From: Octopus sinensis
Taxonomy: Eukaryota
Reading direction: 5' to 3'
DNA: 64,000 nucleotides
Assembly (NCBI RefSeq): GCF_006345805.1
Contig: NC_042997.1
Coordinates: 132,432,001-132,496,000 of the forward strand
Shown: one piece after another, positions 8,826 through 18,030 of the stretch
Numbering within the stretch: position 1 is the stretch's first letter
How the letters are laid out: the number at the start of each line of letters is the position of its first letter
Notes under the pieces: generated by a model
The model's database searches: none
What the model saw: the letters and a program-made list of their open reading frames with translations, nothing else
Told to the model about the DNA's origin: nothing
Made by a program: the position numbers and the translations under genes

Positions 8826-9602
8826 CTCTAAATCAATGACCGGAAGAGGTTCTGTTCGACCCGTGAATAGAGAAATACTTGCCAACAAGGTAAAGCCTAC
8901 ACAAATCTAGGATATGAGACATTTAACCGCCTATTTGGAATCGCTGACTTGACGCTGACTTTTTTGACATCAGATGTTTTAATGTTTCTTTCGTTCACTC
9001 CAGTCACCTGTATGCCTGTCTATGTTTATCTGTGTGAGCATCTAGTTTGTATGTATGTGTAATGTCTCTCTCTTACTCACTTTTTCTGTATGTGTATATT
9101 TATCTGCGAGCAAGTGTGCGCCTCTCCAGTGTCAAAAAGTGTTGTTGCCTAAACATATTGAATGTAAAGTCAAGCCAACCTGATATTTACAAGAGAGAAC
9201 ACGGCGAAGAAACAAGCCGAAATCAAAAAGACACCATTGCAACACTTATCATAGCAGTTTCAGAAACCACCACAAGAACAACAACAACAACCACCACCCA
9301 TTTGCACAGGAGATGGGAGAGAGGGAAAAAAACTGCCGGTAACAAAGAGAAAAAGGACTCCGAAGAAGAAGAGTAAATATCATGAATATGACCAAAAAGA
9401 GTGAGGAAGCACTCTTCCTCCAAACATCATCATGCGGCTCAGAATCGTGAGGCTGAGCAGAGAAGGGACAATAGAATTACCTATTTGAATGAACGATATA
9501 GTTTCGACGGTTTAGATGTTCTCGTGTAAATCGGTACTTCAACTCAGCAGACTTTTCGATCAAAAGGCAAAACGTATCCTATTTGAAAACTCTAACCCCT
9601 AT

Positions 9603-10008
9603 AGGCGCAGGAGTGGCTGTGTGGTAAGTAGCTTGCTTACCAAGCACATAGTTCTAGGTTCAGTCCCACTGCGTGGCACATTGGGCAAGTGCCTTCTACT
9701 ATATCCTCGGGCTGACCAAAGCCTTGTGAGTGGGTTTGGAAGACGGAAACTGAAAGAAACCCGTCGTACGTATGTATATATATGTATGTGTGTATGTTTG
9801 TCTGTCTGTGTTTGTCCCCCCATCGTTGCTTGTCAACCGATGCTGGTTCAACATCGTTGCTTGTCAACCGTAGCGGTTCAGCAAAAGAGAACGATAGAAT
9901 AAGTACTAGGCTTACAAAGAATAAATCCCGGGGTCGATTTGCTCGACTAAAGGCGGTGCTCTAGCATGGGGCCATGAAATGACTGAAACAAGTATAAGAG
10001 TAAAAGCG
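9603..10008 (+). mobile_element. SINE family A, full length
   Basis: Family sequence. Confidence 0.9.
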
Positions 10009-10239
10009 TATAGATAAATTAAGTACCCAAATGAAAAATGCTCGTGGGTTGGTATAATCAGCTAAAACTCAAAATAGAGATGCCATAGCATGGTTACAGT
10101 TAAGTCAGTGAAGCCAGTAAAAAATGGTTGCAAACACTAATTGTAAATCAGCAAGGATGCAACTGAATTCTGTAGTCGAAGGAGGTGAATTTGGATAAGG
10201 CATAGTTTGATTCCTAGAATGTTTTGGCAATGATAATAA

Positions 10240-10492
10240 AAATAAATGCACCCTTTTAAAGCCTAGCCAGGCTCATGGGCCCGGTTTCCCAGTTTCTATG
10301 GCGTATGTGTTCCCCAGCTGGATGGGACGCCAGTCCATCGCAGAGTTACTCATTTTTGCCCGCTGAGTGGACTCGAGCAACGTGAAATGAAGTGTTTTGC
10401 CCAAGAACACAACGCGTCGCCCGGTGCAGGAATCGAAACCACAATCTTATGATCATGGTGCAGACACCCTGACCACTAAGCCACGCGCCTCC
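10240..10492 (-). mobile_element. SINE family C (tRNA-derived head ggaggcgcgtggcttagtgg...gtttcgattcc)
   Basis: A/B boxes on the minus strand; close copy at 42535-42787. Confidence 0.85.
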
Positions 10493-11175
10493 TTTTTTGG
10501 TAATGATATCCACTAGAAAATTTTAGAAACATTTCCATAAATAAGATATCATTAATAATTCATTCTAATCATGGCACAAGGCCAACAGTTTTGAGGGATA
10601 CATCCAAATCGATTACACCAATATCTATAATTTATCAGGTATTTAAATTTATTGATCCCTGGACCCCTGAAAGGATGAAAGGCAAAGCTAACATGGATAG
10701 GATTAGAACTCAGAAGACAAGCCAGAAGAAATGCCACTAAGTATTTTGTCTCGTGTGCTAACGATTCTGCCAGCTCGTTGCTCTTCAGGGTATCACTAAT
10801 AGCAATAAGCATGTACATCAAACATGTTATGAATAAACGGCAAATAATTCTGTAGGCATACAAGAGAGAATTACAATAATCAATCTTAACTATATTAGAA
10901 GACGAATATCTCAAAGGAGCTTACTCCGCTCCTATTCTGTCAGACGTTACAAAAATGCGAAATCATCTTGGACTCGCATTTACAGGCTACAGAAGAGCAA
11001 TCTCATAAATAAATAAATATATATATATATATATATATAAGAAAATAGTAAAGTGTGAAAAAACGACAGAAGGCTTAAATGTTAAAAAATATATATATTT
11101 GTGTCAAAATGTCTGGAGAATATTGGAAAAATTTTTTTTCCTTTCCTTAAAATGACATAATTTAAAAAATTTTTA

Positions 11176-11215
11176 AAGAAATTACCGGTTTCGCGTGTAG
11201 CTTTTCAAATTTCTT
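11176..11215 (-). ncRNA. Minimal hammerhead ribozyme (U3-A8 variant) in the PLE 3' region, left arm
   Basis: Exact reverse complement of 13587-13626. Confidence 0.75.
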
Positions 11216-12459
11216 GTGACGTTATGTTTATATTGCATGGAATTATCGTTGTTTTTATTTCCAGGAGATTTCTAAATAAGGGGAGGTAGTGAGTGATTTT
11301 TTCCGGTGTAGGGGATAATCGCTTAAAATTTTTTTTCCCCTTTTCCTTGTTAATTTCTCTGTGTCAGTATGTTCGGATGGTTGAGTCTGGGTTTGTACTT
11401 TTCAATGAAGAATGTTTCCTTGTTCAGTCTCATTTGTGTTGATGATCCGAAAGCACATGGTAAAATGGGAAGATTAAAAATTGTGGCAGTAGTTGCTTTG
11501 CGCATTTCTCAATGTGCTCACTAAAAGGTATCATTCTATATTCTGGGAATGCAATCTGTTGTCGATGCAGTGTGCATCTGCGCCTGAGTGATAGTCCCGT
11601 GGAACCCACGTAGTCTTGGTGGCAGCCCGAGCATTTAATAACATAAATTATGTTTTCAGAGGCACAAGTAAAGTTAGATTTGATCTTAAATTTCTGTCCC
11701 TCTTTAAAGAAGAATTCTGATCCTTCCAATAGGTTAGGACATGTTGCACAGTTCGATCTACCACATTTTTTTACTTTTGCATCCGTATTTTAGAAGACAA
11801 TTTTGCCTTTGTGAGAATCTTTTTAAGTGATTTAGGCTGTTTGTAGCTTTTAATGATTTGGTGTATGTTTAGAATTCCTTTAATTTTGGGTTTTTATGAA
11901 GTATTGGTAAATTCTGGGTGATGATGGTGAAGGCTTCTTTGTTTCTGGGGTTGTATGTAGATATGTAAGGTAGTATTTTCGGGGAAGGTGTGTTGTTGTG
12001 TTGAACTTTTCTTAAAGTTTCTATGTTGATTTCTGTTGCACGAGCTGGGTAATGTCTGTCAATTAGGGTGTTTTTGAGTTCTTGCAGTCTAAAGTTCCTG
12101 GTATTTTGTTCTGACACTATTGTGCATATCCTTCTTGCAAGGTTGAAGGGGATGTTTGTTTTAGTGTGTCTTGGGTGGCATGAATTAAAAAGAAGGTATT
12201 GTTTGGCGTCTGTGGCTTTGTAAAAAATGTCTGTTTCTATTTTAAGGTTAATTTTTTTAAGGTTAATTTAAAGTTTGTTAGGAAATCAATCTCTTTGGTT
12301 GTCAGTTCCTTTTCATGGGTTTTAATTAGTGAAGATAGAGTTTTCATTATTTTTTGTGGGGTGTAGTTGGTAATTTTTTCATAATGTAGGTCTTCATCAA
12401 GCAAGGAAATTACAAGATTTCTGTAGTATGATGTATCCATTATTACAACTGCAGTTCAC

Positions 12460-13450
12460 AATATACAGTTCACAATGGAATACAACCAAAAGGAGCTCCC
12501 GTTCTTGGATATACTAATTAAAAAAATTAACCTTAAAATAGAAACAGACATTTTTTACAAAGCCACAGACGCCAAACAATACCTTCTTTTTAATTCATGC
12601 CACCCAAGACACACTAAAACAAACATCCCCTTCAACCTTGCAAGAAGGATATGCACAATAGTGTCAGAACAAAATACCAGGAACTTTAGACTGCAAGAAC
12701 TCAAAAACACCCTAATTGACAGACATTACCCAGCTCAACTCATAGAGGATGGGATCAGACGTGCAACAGAAATCAACATAGAAACTTTAAGAAAAGTCAA
12801 CACAACAACACACCTTCCCCGAAAATACTACCTTACATATCTACATACAACCCCAGAAACAAAGAAGCCTTCACCATCATCACCCAGAATTTACCAATAC
12901 TTCATAAAAAACCCAAAATTAAAGGAAATTCTAAACATACACCAAATCATTAAAAGCTACAAACAGCCTAAATCACTTAAAAAGATTCTCACAAAGGCAA
13001 AATTGTCTTCTAAAATTACGGATGCAAAAGTAAAAAAATGTGGTAGATCGAACTGTGCAACATGTCCTAACCTATTGGAAGGATCAGAATTCTTCTTTAA
13101 AGAGGGACAGAAATTTAAGATCAAATCTAACTTTACTTGTGCCTCTGAAAACATAATTTGTTATTAAATGCTCGGGCTGCCACCAAGACTACGTGGGTTC
13201 CACGGACTATCACTCAGGCGCAGATGCACACTGCATCGACAACAGATTGCATTCCCAGAATATAGAATGATACCTTTTAGTGAGCACATTGAGAAATGCG
13301 CAAAGCAACTACTGCCACAATTTTTAATCTTCCCATTTTACCAATGTGCTTTCGGATCATCAACACAAATGAACTGAACAAGGAAACATTCTTCATTGAA
13401 AAGTACAAACCCAGACTCAACCATCCGAACATACTGACACAGAGAAATTA
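12460..13450 (+). pseudogene. PLE RT C-terminus/thumb plus GIY-YIG endonuclease, frameshifted
   Basis: ORFs 12475-13167 and 13168-13377 joined across 1-2 nt indels. Confidence 0.85.
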
Positions 13451-13586
13451 ACAAGGAAAAGGGGAAAAAAAATTTTAAGCGATTATCTCCCTACACCGGA
13501 AAAAATCACTCACTACCTCCCCTTATTTAGAAATCTCCTGGAAATAAAAACAACGATAATTCCATGCAATATAAACATAACGTCAC

Positions 13587-13626
13587 AAGAAATTTGAAAA
13601 GCTACACGCGAAACCGGTAATTTCTT
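13587..13626 (+). ncRNA. Minimal type I hammerhead ribozyme (U3-A8 variant)
   Basis: aagaaat | ttgaaaa | gc-tacac-gc | gaaa | ccgg | ta | atttctt: perfect 7-bp stem I and palindromic ACCGGU stem III. Confidence 0.75.
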
Positions 13627-13801
13627 TAAAAATTTTTTAAATTATGTCATTTTAAGGAAAGGAAAAAAAATTTTTCCAATATTCTCCAGACATTTTGACA
13701 CAAATATATATATTTTTTAACATTTAAGCCTTCTGTCGTTTTTTCACACTTTACTATTTTCTTATATATTCACCCACGTGCTTTACCAAACAAATTTTCT
13801 T

Positions 13802-13867
<66 letters not shown>

Positions 13868-13892
13868 ATGTGTGTGTATATATATATATAGA

Positions 13893-14085
13893 TCGTTAGC
13901 TACTACACACCTTTTTTTTCTCTCCTTGCTTCTCTCCTTGTTTTTTTTCTGTGTATCTTTATGTAGAAGAGCGTAGGCTCAAAACGTAAAAGACTTTTTC
14001 TATTCCTGAGCGCTATACTAATACATCTGTTTGTTTGTACACCACCTGCCTTCGTTTTGTTTTATTTTCGTAAACTTTCCCTTTA
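13893..14085 (+). mobile_element. Short (TA)n-flanked pLTR-like element with degenerate HHR at 13956-13993
   Basis: Homologous to 59045-59227; tcttt|atgtaga|a gagc-gtag-gctc|aaaa|cg|ta|aaaga. Confidence 0.6.
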
Positions 14086-14098
14086 TATATATATATAT

Positions 14099-14136
<38 letters not shown>

Positions 14137-14319
14137 GGTCTGAAGTTGTATATTGCAGGTGGTTCCGTTACAGACAGTACACGAATTCGCTAGTTACTGA
14201 AATTAATTTCTCTTCAAGAAAAATGTGCCAGAGCAACCTCGAATAGAAGGAAATTAATAAAAGAACCATTAAAATCGTATTAAAGAAATAGACCGAAAAA
14301 AAAGAAAAGAACAAAAAAA

Positions 14320-14450
14320 TAAACAGAGATCAAATACGGATTTACAAATACTTAGAAATTAATGAACTAGTTATATTACAACACGTACAAATGAAGAAAA
14401 AATTACGAAGGAATGATAAAGATGTATTAGATTAATTCTTAAAGCTTAAA
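14320..14450 (+). pseudogene. Degenerate R4/Dong-like RT motif 7 fragment
   Basis: tacaaatacttagaaatt (YKYLEI), followed by an R.IRLILK-like segment. Confidence 0.4.
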
Positions 14451-15012
14451 ACAGTGCTTTGCTTGTTTAGTCATCACGTGCAAACAAGTATGACCTGGTG
14501 ACTTATACCACACTTTCGTTAATAGTTTTAGATATTTTAGATATAGTTTTAGATATCTATATCGCGAGCAGACATAGATATCCTCTTAGCTTCCCTTCTT
14601 TTGGTCTGGGAAGAAATCGAGGATATGAAAGCTGGAGGAAAAGGTTCAAGCCAACAGTCGGCTAGTACACATACCTGGGGCAGGCAACGTTCGGTCCAGA
14701 AATGAATCTATGATTGTGAGCCCAACGCCTTAACTCCGAGGCTACAAGTCTTCACAAATTAGAACTAAAATCAAATACTTATCTTCATAAATAGAGATAA
14801 AAGCAATTAATTTTCATAAATATTTATTTTCATAAAAAGAGCTAAATGCAAATAAATAATTAATAAACATTCCTATTACATCATGGCAATCCATTTTAAC
14901 CACTTAATATCACACAAAGCGTTAAAATTCACCTAGGATTTATTTCACGAGGTATTAAACTTTTCGTCGCGCAGCGGTAACCTGATCACTAACACACCCC
15001 CACTGTAGACAT

Positions 15013-15173
15013 AGGCATGACAGTGTGGCTAGAAAGCTCGTTTTGCAACCACATGCTTTCAGGGTCAGTCATATTCTGTGGCACCGTGGGCAAATGTATT
15101 TCGCTATAGCCCCGGGCGGACCAATGTTTTGTAAATGAATCTGGCAGATGGAAATTGTGTGGAAGCCCATCTT

Positions 15174-15209
<36 letters not shown>

Positions 15210-15425
15210 ATTTATTTGTATGTATGTCTTTGCATTTGTATTTGTTCCCCCACCGCTCGACGATCGGCGTTCGTTTGTTTACGTCCCTAAAACTAATAGT
15301 TTAACTAAAGAGACCAACAGAATACATACCAAACTTAAAGATAAGAACTGGAATCGACTTATTCGACCAAAATCGATTCCCCAGCATGGCTGCAGTCCAA
15401 TAACTGCAGCAAGTAAAGAATAAAA
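15013..15425 (+). mobile_element. SINE family A, diverged
   Basis: Recognisable head and tail with many substitutions. Confidence 0.75.
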
Positions 15426-16059
15426 ACGAAAAGACAGTGGAAAACTGCCTGAGACAAAAATGTTGATATCTCATTAAATAAATTTAGAATTTGAAGTGAA
15501 TTAAATAGCTTCGTGCGTTATTACATGGATGGACTGAATCTTCCACAATGTAATTATTTCCGTTTCCACAGATGTTCTCAGGTCAAGTAAAATTCTGGAT
15601 TTACTATTATTATAGATATTATAGTGATAGTTATTGCTGTAATATTGTAGAGTGTGAAATAAATTAATGAAACTGAACCAGAAGGCATGAAATATATTAA
15701 CTGCATTTGTAATACATCACCCTAACTCTAAAAGAGAATGATTATATTTGCAACGCATAGAAAGAGAGAGAGATATACAGGTCTTCGGCAACTCGAAAAT
15801 AATTGTAAAATATCCACTGTAGGAATATAATAAAGAAAACACACACACATAAGTTTTCTATCTTCAAGCAAGAAAACAGAAAATAGATATTGAGATAACA
15901 AAAAGTTGAGGAGAATGGAGAAGCAATAATTAACAATTAAGAGTTAATTGAAAAATAATAACTCTAGATACACAGATCCGTGGTCGTTAGAGTAGAGTAA
16001 ATATCAAAAAAAAAAAAAAAAAAAATTCAGAGCCTGGCTAATTATGGTTTCAAATTTTG

Positions 16060-17426
16060 TGGAAGGGATAGTCGATTACATCGACCTTAATTTTCAACTG
16101 GTGCTTATTTTATCGAGCCCGAAAGGATAAAAGGCAAATTGAACTTCGGCGGAATTTGAACACAGATCGTAAAGGCAGAGGAGATGCCTATATCTTTACT
16201 GCCCACAAGGGGCTACACACAGAGGGGACAAACAAGGACAGACAAACGGATTAAGTCGATTAAATCGACCCCAGTGCTCAACTAGTACTTATTTAATCGA
16301 CCCCTGAAAGGATGAAAGGCAAAGTCGACCTCGGCGGAAATTGAACTCAGAACGCAAAGGCGGATGAAATGCCGCTAAGCATTTTGCCTGTCATGCTAAC
16401 GATTCTGCCAGTCCGAACCTTAAGTGCCTGAATAATAATCTTTTCTATTATATGTACAAAGACTGAAATTTTAGGGGGAAGGGAATAGTCGATTACATCG
16501 ACCTTAATATTCAGCTGGTGCTTATTTTATCGACCCCGAAAGGATGAAAGACAAATTGGACTTCGGCAGAATTTGAACCCAGAACATAAAGAAGGGCAAA
16601 ATGCCGCTAAACATTTTGCCCAACGTGCTAACGATCAGACAGCTCGCAGCCCTAAGATCCTGAATAATTCTTTCTACTATAGGCACAAGGCCTGAAATTT
16701 GAGTGGGTGGGGGAACCAGTCGATTAGATCGACCCCAGCCAGTATGCATCCTGAAAAGATGAAAAGCAAAGTCGACCTCGGCGGAATTTAAACTCAAACA
16801 TAAAAACAGACGAAATACCTATTTCTTTACTACCCACAAAGGGCTAAACATAGATGAGACGGACAAGGACAGACAAACGGATTAAGTCGATTATATCGGC
16901 CCCAGTGCGTAACTGGAACTTATTTAATCGACCCCGAAAGAATGAAAGGCAAAGTCGACCTCGGCGGAATTTGAACTCAGAACGTAGCGGCAGACGAAAT
17001 ACCTATTTCTGTTTCTTTACTACCCACAAGGGGCTAAACACAGAGGGGATAAACAAGGACAGAAAAACAGATTAAGTCAATTACATCGACCCCAGTGCGT
17101 AATTGGTACTTAAGTTATCGACCCCGAAAGGATGAAAGGCAAAGTCGACCTCGGCGGAATTTGAACTCAGAACGTAGTGGCCGACGAAATACCTATTTCT
17201 TTACTACCCACAAGAGGTTAAATATAGAGGGCACAAACATGGACAGACAAACAGATTAAGTCGATTACATCAACCCCAGTGCGTAACTGGTACTTATTTA
17301 ATCGACCCCGAAATGATTAAAGGCAAATTCGACCTCGGCGGAATTCGAACTAAGAACGTAGCGGCAGACGAAATACCGCTAAGCATTCCGCCCGGCTCGC
17401 TAACGTTTCTGCCAGCTCGCCGCCTT
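16060..17426 (-). mobile_element. Cluster/array of SINE family B, about 7 units
   Basis: Repeated unit; head ends at gccagctcgccgcc near 17425. Confidence 0.85.
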
Positions 17427-17819
17427 AAGCATACAATAATGCCGATGGCACAAGGTCTGAAATTTTGGTAGAAGGGGGCTTGTTGATTACATCAAAGATG
17501 TAAAGCAAAGTTGAGCACGGCAAAATTTGAACTCAGAATTCAAATAGCGGAGAGAAATGCTGCAAGGCAACATCCCTATCGTTTTTGAGGATCTGCCAGG
17601 TATCCACATTGTTTCTTTATTAGCCACAAGAACTCGAAAGTTACAATAAAATAAAATACAATGAAGATTAAACAGAGGACTTACATAGTCTTGTGCGATG
17701 GAGCAAGCAAGTTATCTGAAGATGGAGGGAGAATAGAAAGACATTGAATAATTAAATATGGGGCAAGTTATAAATTCACAAAAACAACAAAATTGCCAAA
17801 AAAGCATACAATAATCTTG

Positions 17820-18030
17820 TCTACTATAGGCACAAGGCCTGAAATTTTGGGTGGAATGGGCAAGTCGATTACATCGACCCTAGTACTTAACTGGTACTTA
17901 ATTTATCGACTCCGAAAGGATGAAAGGCAAAATCGACCTCAGCGGAATTTGAACTCAGAACGTAGCGTAAGACGAAACACTGCTAAGCATTGTGCTCGGC
18001 GTGCTAACGTTTCTGCCAGCTTGCGGCCTT
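17820..18030 (-). mobile_element. SINE family B, single copy
   Basis: Family sequence. Confidence 0.8.

What the first reader, a model, noticed from the sequence alone, without database searches (positions are those of the whole stretch)
13587..13626. PLE hammerhead with compensated U3-A8 core (UUGAAAA)
Seen: a perfect 7-bp stem I encloses UUGAAAA, a 2-bp stem II (GC-UACAC-GC), GAAA, palindromic ACCGGU and a GUA cleavage triplet, about 140 nt after the GIY-YIG ORF. It is identical in the inverted arm (11176-11215). Established: C3 and G8 form a tertiary Watson-Crick pair in the HHR core. Inference: the double change C3U/G8A keeps that pair, which points to selection for function rather than decay.
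Basis: partly seen in the sequence, partly recalled or inferred. Interest (0 to 1): 0.75.

Follow-up and report, generated by a model that had tools for sequence, protein, structure and literature searches.

The report
Penelope hammerhead with inherited U3-A8 core
This is one of about 850 genomic copies of a hammerhead-shaped RNA motif at the end of a Penelope-type jumping gene; its unusual U-A core pair is an already published variant shared by many such elements in this genome, and it likely cuts RNA only slowly and only as a pair of copies.

Summary
The 40-mer at 13587-13626 (+) and its mirror at 11176-11215 (-) form a minimal type I hammerhead 135 nt after the RT/GIY-YIG ORF of a young Neptune/Nematis-type Penelope-like element. 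It is not decay: of 846 genomic matches, 98 of 100 listed read UUGAAAA, and no copy with this stem II has G8. It is not new either. U3-A8 in Penelope hammerheads, including UUGAAAA itself, is published (PMC4209133), and this scan noted it in other genomes. U3-A8 is also not a recent double change: it makes up 10,306 of 11,143 ACCGGU-type core matches here and is ancestral in the lineage. Stem I covaries across 18 lineages (65 of 90 pairs, 27.5 expected), which supports selection on the fold. Against strict selection, a sister clade with U3-G8 and a shortened stem I still amplified. The identical mirror arm is no evidence, because the whole arms are identical. The motif likely needs a dimer or the element's protein. 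Seven loci begin at the predicted cut, two as tandem arrays, which hints at cleavage in vivo; the enrichment over controls is inconclusive. Verdict: ordinary new member of a known kind.

The parts
13587..13626 (+). Minimal type I hammerhead motif with U3-A8 core; predicted cut between 13619 (A17) and 13620
   Evidence: fixed in the family
13594..13600 (+). Core box U3-U4-G5-A6-A7-A8-A9; U3 = 13594, A8 = 13599
   Evidence: numbering; same heptamer in the PMC4209133 supplement
13613..13618 (+). Palindrome ACCGGU, predicted to form stem III between two copies
   Evidence: cofold of two 40-mers gives the double hammerhead as the minimum-energy fold
11176..11215 (-). Identical hammerhead motif in the inverted arm
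12460..13769 (+). 5'-truncated PLE copy: RT thumb, linker, GIY-YIG region with frameshifts, 3' UTR/pLTR; spans -1162 to +150 relative to the cut
   Evidence: 99.0% to the near-full-length copy L034
11033..12260 (-). Inverted 5'-truncated PLE copy, head to head with the + arm (-1104 to +150)
   Evidence: weak GIY-YIG Pfam hit, E 0.014, below cut-off
12266..12457 (-). Further RT fragment of the inverted arm (-2049 to -1858), joined across an internal deletion
   Evidence: 99.5% to L034
13039..13065 (+). CX4CXXC linker motif (CGRSNCATC) between RT and endonuclease, a mark of Neptune/Nematis PLEs
   Evidence: definition in PMC8557442
13771..13812 (+). About 41-nt PLE 'tail', present at one end only
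   Evidence: tail described in PMC8557442
11015..11039 (.). (TA)n target microsatellite, left flank
13806..13850 (.). (TA)n target microsatellite, right flank

Best explanation
The motif is the minimal hammerhead in the pseudo-LTR of a young Penelope-like retrotransposon, with an inherited U3-A8 core pair, and it likely cuts slowly, only as a double hammerhead or with help from the element's protein. Shown: the motif, its fixation in the family, its place 135 nt after an RT/GIY-YIG ORF, its presence in both pLTRs of near-full-length copies about 4.0 kb apart, stem covariation across lineages, and that U3-A8 is ancestral. Inferred: in a tandem transcript two copies pair through ACCGGU to build stem III; U3-A8 replaces C3-G8; cutting after A17 frees a 5'-OH RNA that starts 190-200 nt before ORF1. 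Inferred: most integration templates are uncut at the 3' motif, because intact copies keep both sides of the cut and run 150 nt past it, so cutting is a minor or regulated route. The window locus is a truncated, frameshifted two-armed insertion and is probably inert.
For: Family: 846 matches, 0 in the reversed control; 98 of 100 listed are UUGAAAA; 0 matches with G8; U3 and A8 in 72 of 72 held copy rows (a few rows may be duplicates). Element: 837-aa frame with RVT_1 hit E 2.9e-7; its homologues carry RT, and many of the 120 listed also GIY-YIG; tandem pLTRs each with the motif. Selection on the fold: 65 of 90 Watson-Crick pairs in stem I over 18 lineages, against 27.5 +/- 5.2 when strands are swapped, 0 of 20,000 shuffles reaching it; U-A lineages alone 38 of 50 against 18.5. 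Positions 3 and 8: C-G 159, U-A 10,306, C-A 327, U-G 351; odds ratio about 15 after subtracting controls. One retrozyme family has both C-G and U-A forms in the same flanks. Cofold gives the double hammerhead at -15.5 kcal/mol against -4.0 for the monomer. Literature: U3-A8 is natural and reported active in vitro (PMC3088659); minimal PLE hammerheads cut weakly and only as multimers (PMC4209133); the Anolis one needs the element's protein (PMC11167929).
Against: No cleavage was tested. A monophyletic sister clade (support 100) has U3-G8 and one base fewer in stem I, yet gives 47 of 100 listed U-G matches and includes copies with pLTR plus ORF1. C-A and U-G matches each outnumber C-G, and copy counts are not independent events. 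The minimum-energy dimer adds a U3-A17 pair, which would compete with U3-A8 as C3-G17 is presumed to compete with C3-G8 (PMC3884650). Stem II has only 2 bp and no loop contact was identified. Several of the 18 lineages have 0-2 of 5 stem I pairs, each lineage is one copy, and not all were linked to a PLE ORF.
Confidence: 0.72

Rival explanations
1. The motif is a catalytically dead or near-dead hammerhead kept as a structural element, for example a dimerisation or protein-binding site. A/U-rich mutation bias moved C3-G8 to U3-A8, and cutting is not needed for spread.
For: The U3-G8, short-stem-I sister clade amplified. The predicted U3-A17 pair would block the core. All intact copies were made from RNA uncut at this site. 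In Anolis, hammerhead mutants did not affect insertion in vitro and no RNA ends were found at the cut (PMC11167929). Naiad PLEs spread without canonical hammerheads (PMC8557442).
Against: UGA-N-A-A, GAAA and the U before the cut are kept in families whose linked proteins are only about 45-60% identical, though these letters were part of my search patterns. Positions 3 and 8 are associated. Seven loci start at the predicted cut.
Confidence: 0.2
2. The hammerhead is an efficient, obligatory processing site that releases unit-length RNA for circularisation and rolling reverse transcription, with strict selection on the 3-8 pair.
For: Two independent loci are tandem arrays of deleted units that start at the cut, within 1-2 nt of microhomology: about 1.85 kb at three junctions and about 0.39 kb repeated on both arms. 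Re-ligated circles would restore an intact site in genomic copies. The model was proposed in PMC4209133.
Against: The amplified U3-G8 clade; the weak in vitro activity of minimal PLE hammerheads; junctions at the cut are rare, 7 loci beside about 850 intact matches; the matched-design search gave 1 row at the cut against 3 rows at a control position.
Confidence: 0.06
3. The UUGAAAA core is mutational decay of a canonical core in this one copy, or a chance look-alike.
For: C to T and G to A are common transitions; the 40-mer folds no better than shuffles; Rfam gives no hammerhead hit.
Against: Fixed in the family, ancestral on the tree, and stem I covaries.
Confidence: 0.02

Closest known systems
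U3-A8 minimal hammerheads of Cercyon PLEs, Schistosoma mansoni (Cervera and De la Pena 2014, PMC4209133; main text parts 1-2 of 4 read, supplement file 2 part 2 of 3 read, file 1 not searchable)
   Same: Type I minimal motif in PLE pLTRs; U3-A8 core; the supplement lists a PLE-linked UUGAAAAA row; palindromic stem III region; predicted dimer.
   Different: Stem II here is 2 bp rather than 7-8 bp; stem I is 7 bp rather than 4-5 bp; there is no extra base between positions 9 and 10.1; stem III has a 6-nt palindrome. U3-A8 is 94% of ACCGGU-type core matches here after control subtraction, while the paper gives about 1,300 U3-A8 against about 2,000 canonical motifs (different descriptors).
Natural U3-A8 hammerheads (Perreault et al. 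2011, PMC3088659; section 8 and passages read)
   Same: Same covariation, reported as natural and previously shown active in vitro; 2-bp stem II noted as common.
   Different: Not described for PLEs in the passages read; this one lacks a self-closing stem III.
Hammerhead of Poseidon PAc, Anolis carolinensis (PMC11167929; first part of the main text and passages read)
   Same: PLE pLTR hammerhead; copies end inside the template downstream of the motif and carry a tail.
   Different: PAc has C3-G8, is Penelope/Poseidon clade, and its ORF starts inside the motif; here the motif lies about 190-200 nt before ORF1 and the element has the CX4CXXC linker.
Neptune/Nematis EN+ PLEs (Craig et al. 2021, PMC8557442; Introduction and passages read)
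   Same: RT, CX2-5CXXC linker, C-terminal GIY-YIG with two inner cysteines; pLTRs, inverted 5'-truncated copy, one-sided tail, (TA)n targets.
   Different: Neptune versus Nematis was not resolved with a reference tree.

Membership tests
Minimal type I hammerhead of metazoan PLEs | Core boxes with a 3-8 Watson-Crick pair, GAAA and NUH | tested here: met
   U3-A8, GAAA, GUA; U3-A8 is a published variant
Minimal type I hammerhead of metazoan PLEs | Stems I and II, with G10.1-C11.1, supported by covariation | tested here: met
   7-bp and 2-bp stems; stem I covaries across 18 lineages; A-U to G-C change in close outgroups
Minimal type I hammerhead of metazoan PLEs | Palindromic 15.1-16.1 region allowing a dimer | tested here: met
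   ACCGGU; the double hammerhead is the cofold minimum
Minimal type I hammerhead of metazoan PLEs | Extra base between positions 9 and 10.1 (consensus feature, not universal) | tested here: not met
   A9 is followed directly by G10.1; some published rows also lack it
Minimal type I hammerhead of metazoan PLEs | Located in both pLTRs of the element | tested here: met
   L031, L032 and L034 have the motif twice on one strand, about 4.0 kb apart
Minimal type I hammerhead of metazoan PLEs | Self-cleavage at the NUH site | not testable with these tools
   Only indirect genomic junctions, inconclusive
EN+ Penelope-like element | RT followed by GIY-YIG endonuclease in one frame | tested here: met
   P0001 from L034: RVT_1 above cut-off; GIY-YIG weak on the window arm and annotated on many homologues
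EN+ Penelope-like element | pLTR tandems, inverted 5'-truncated copy, one-sided tail | tested here: met
Neptune/Nematis clades | CX2-5CXXC linker between RT and EN | tested here: met
   CGRSNCATC
Neptune/Nematis clades | Placement in an RT tree with reference elements | not tested
   No named reference PLE sequences were on hand
Non-LTR retrozyme | Short non-coding tandem unit of about 170-400 nt with an intact hammerhead | tested here: not met
   The unit is about 4.0 kb and protein-coding

The most novel reading that the evidence does not exclude
This U3-A8 hammerhead cuts in the germ line, and the genome records it. Seven loci start at the predicted cut, and two are tandem arrays of internally deleted units joined at the cut, as expected if the cut RNA's 5'-OH end was ligated to a broken downstream end and the circle was copied round by the element's RT. 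With U3-A8 dominant, and a natural U3-G8 sister clade that still spread, this lineage would give an in vivo read-out of how much 3-8 pairing and cutting a Penelope element needs.
Probability: 0.35. Interest if true: 0.55.

Novelty: new member of a known kind. Interest (0 to 1): 0.24.

Why it matters
The core variant itself adds little, because it is in print. Two things are useful. First, searches that demand CUGANGA would miss most ACCGGU-type minimal hammerheads in this genome (10,306 U-A against 159 C-G matches). Second, the role of hammerheads in Penelope-like elements is open, and this lineage offers natural variants on a near-identical RT (U3-A8 with full stem I, U3-A8 with shortened stem I, U3-G8), plus a few insertions that begin at the cut. 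These allow a direct test of whether cutting matters.

Tried and rejected
Rfam scan of 9000-16000 at E<=10: no hammerhead family among 13 matches. Monomer folding: no signal over shuffles in 3 of 3 lengths. Splice-donor idea (the GUA triplet overlaps G|GTAATT): no joint from that site in the contigs laid, and sister subfamilies read GTC; rejected as unsupported, though contigs cannot show absence. Expression: no RNA holder listed on record; only contigs were available, which cannot show RNA ends. Protein tree was distorted by frameshifted copies, and the tree by truncated rows; both were set aside for the 18-row tree, which left out truncated copies. Whether the window clade regained or kept the base after the cut is unresolved. 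Enrichment of copy starts at the cut: matched-design search 1 row against 3 control rows at 2 loci; looser search 7 loci against roughly 4 expected from that control; neither shows clear enrichment. RT stalling at the ACCGGU duplex, or AT-rich microhomology, could give the same junctions. Back-splicing for the two arrays was rejected because the skipped parts do not start with GT. The primary papers on 3-8 mutants (PMC1986816, PMC4447102) and the Terminon paper (PMC5850863) could not be read; what is said about them comes from papers that cite them. Only motifs with ACCGGU in stem III were surveyed.

Full report
Observation. The 40-mer at 13587-13626 is as described, and its reverse complement at 11176-11215 is identical. 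The 26-nt core occurs twice in the window and never in 100 shuffles. The numbering gives U3 = 13594, A8 = 13599 and A17 = 13619. The monomer folds no better than shuffles (z -0.37), its stem III cannot close, and Rfam gives no hammerhead hit. The second copy is not independent evidence: the two arms align with 1223 identities and no mismatch, only indels.

The locus. The window holds a head-to-head insertion in (TA)n: a + arm at 12460-13769, a - arm at 11033-12260 with a further fragment at 12266-12457, and a 41-nt tail at the right end only. Both arms are 5'-truncated and frameshifted. This matches the structure described for Penelope-like elements (PMC8557442, passages). A near-full-length relative, L034, has an ORF1, an 837-aa frame with an RVT_1 hit above cut-off, a CX4CXXC linker and a GIY-YIG-type end. 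The linker marks Neptune or Nematis; I did not place it with a reference tree. In L031, L032 and L034 the motif stands twice on one strand, about 4.0 kb apart, once in each pLTR. Because the window's arms face away from each other, a transcript of this locus would carry one sense copy and its antisense, so this locus is probably inert (inference).

Is UUGAAAA fixed? A pattern with positions 3, 7 and 8 left open has 846 matches and none in the reversed control; 98 of the 100 listed are UUGAAAA and 2, one locus, have C3. A pattern demanding G8 has 0 matches. U3 and A8 stand in 72 of 72 held copy rows at 93% identity or more (a few rows may be duplicates). No other letter was listed in the core in contigs of four public runs (weak, since contigs drop rare variants). 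Decay is excluded.

Is it a compensatory double change? Counting XUGANYA, 5-22 nt, GAAACCGGUH over the genome gives C-G 159 (control 43), U-A 10,306 (101), C-A 327 (60) and U-G 351 (49). After subtracting controls U-A is 94% and the odds ratio is about 15. Copies are not independent and overlapping matches can count twice. U-A occurs in many families, some with linked proteins only about 45-60% identical to P0001. On an 18-row tree of the upstream region, outgroups and the window clade have U3-A8, and a U3-G8 clade is nested inside with support 100. So U3-A8 is inherited, not new in this family. A retrozyme-like family in the same genome shows C-G, U-A and C-A forms in the same flanks, which is the closest view of the switch itself.

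Evidence for selection on the fold. With one copy from each of 18 lineages, 65 of 90 first-five stem I positions are Watson-Crick pairs, against 27.5 +/- 5.2 when the strands are dealt out anew; 0 of 20,000 shuffles reach it. The 10 U-A lineages alone give 38 of 50 against 18.5. I chose the lineages by eye, some have few pairs, and not all were linked to a PLE ORF.

Evidence against strict selection. The U3-G8 clade also lacks one base of stem I; in one of its forms the predicted dimer leaves no free base at the cut. It still accounts for 47 of the 100 listed U-G matches and includes copies with pLTR plus ORF1. In the window motif the minimum-energy dimer adds a U3-A17 pair. The analogous C3-G17 pair is the presumed reason why G17 hammerheads are slow (PMC3884650, passages). 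That U3-A17 slows this motif is my inference.

Mechanism. Two copies fold into the double hammerhead through ACCGGU (-15.5 kcal/mol; -14.1 without the extra pairs). Published minimal PLE hammerheads do not cut as monomers and cut weakly as multimers (PMC4209133). The Anolis motif cuts only with the element's protein and is not needed for insertion in vitro (PMC11167929). Here intact copies keep both sides of the cut and end 150 nt beyond it, so their templates were uncut or re-ligated. I commit to slow, dimer- or protein-assisted cutting as a minor or regulated route (0.72), ahead of a non-catalytic structural role (0.2).

Possible traces of cutting. Among 37 of 40 ORF1-bearing hits examined, 10 independent 5' ends fall between -60 and +20 of the cut and 3 of them at 0 to +2 (binomial P 0.005-0.02; range chosen after seeing the data). 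A genome-wide pattern gave 17 rows: 10 rows at 7 loci are true junctions at the cut, 3 of them those already seen, and 7 rows are point or indel variants. Two loci are same-strand tandem arrays of deleted units that restart at the cut within 1-2 nt of microhomology. This fits a circle made from cut RNA, as shown in vitro for retrozyme RNAs with RtcB (PMC7229834, passages). Against it: the matched-design search gave 1 row at the cut and 3 rows at 2 loci at a control position; the looser search exceeds that control only about twofold; and RT stalling at the ACCGGU duplex predicts the same position. This is a hint, not a result.

Comparison with what is known. U3-A8 was reported as natural covariation in 2011 (PMC3088659, section 8 read) and in PLE hammerheads of Schistosoma in 2014, about 1,300 hits (PMC4209133). 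That paper's supplement lists a PLE-linked UUGAAAAA row and a UUGAAGAA row, so U3-G8 is in print too. Searches for 'hammerhead' with 'U3-A8' or 'U3 and A8' returned only these two papers. A search for octopus, Penelope and hammerhead listed no paper on this motif (listing only); earlier scan notes call this genome octopus, which I did not check. Supplement file 1 of PMC4209133 could not be searched and may list more. The scan has noted U3-A8 PLE hammerheads and cut-site junctions in other genomes (unchecked notes).

Verdict. A real motif, correctly read, in an ordinary truncated PLE insertion; a new member of a known kind. Interest 0.24. The side results (U3-A8 dominance, the natural U3-G8 sister clade, the arrays that start at the cut) make the lineage a convenient test set but do not change the class.

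Noticed in passing
L034:3335-3345 (- strand) and many other held loci: ORF1 overlaps the RT frame at a conserved TTTTTTA heptamer followed by a G/C-rich stretch, likely a programmed -1 frameshift (47 of 48 rows, loci overlapping). A frameshifted ORF1 is mentioned for PLEs in the Fig. 1 legend of PMC8557442.
   Followed up: partly
L103-L107, L168, L169: Sister clade with a U3-G8 core and one base fewer in stem I, monophyletic and amplified; a natural test of whether cutting is needed.
   Followed up: partly
L201:3146-5130 and L202:3012-7257: Tandem arrays of internally deleted units (about 0.39 kb and 1.85 kb) that restart at the predicted cut site.
   Followed up: partly
L045-L056, L101, L117, L135, L137: Retrozyme-like repeat with about 355-nt spacing; C3-G8, U3-A8 and C3-A8 cores occur in the same flanks, and copies show inverted arms like PLE insertions.
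   Followed up: partly
L063-L082, L110-L114: Further high-copy PLE families with U3-A8 cores; one has 583 matches; one linked ORF ends about 2 kb before the motif (L114).
   Followed up: partly
L136, L094, L102: A repeated family with a CUGAUAA core box and GAAACCGGUC but no stem I in the copies seen; possibly a degenerate hammerhead or not one at all.
   Followed up: no
window 10548-10773 and 16017-17995: Cluster of about ten diverged copies of a short interspersed repeat, 60-90% alike.
   Followed up: no
window 11033-13769: The two arms differ only by indels and by no substitution over 1223 positions: a very young insertion, gene conversion, or assembly errors in homopolymers.
   Followed up: no
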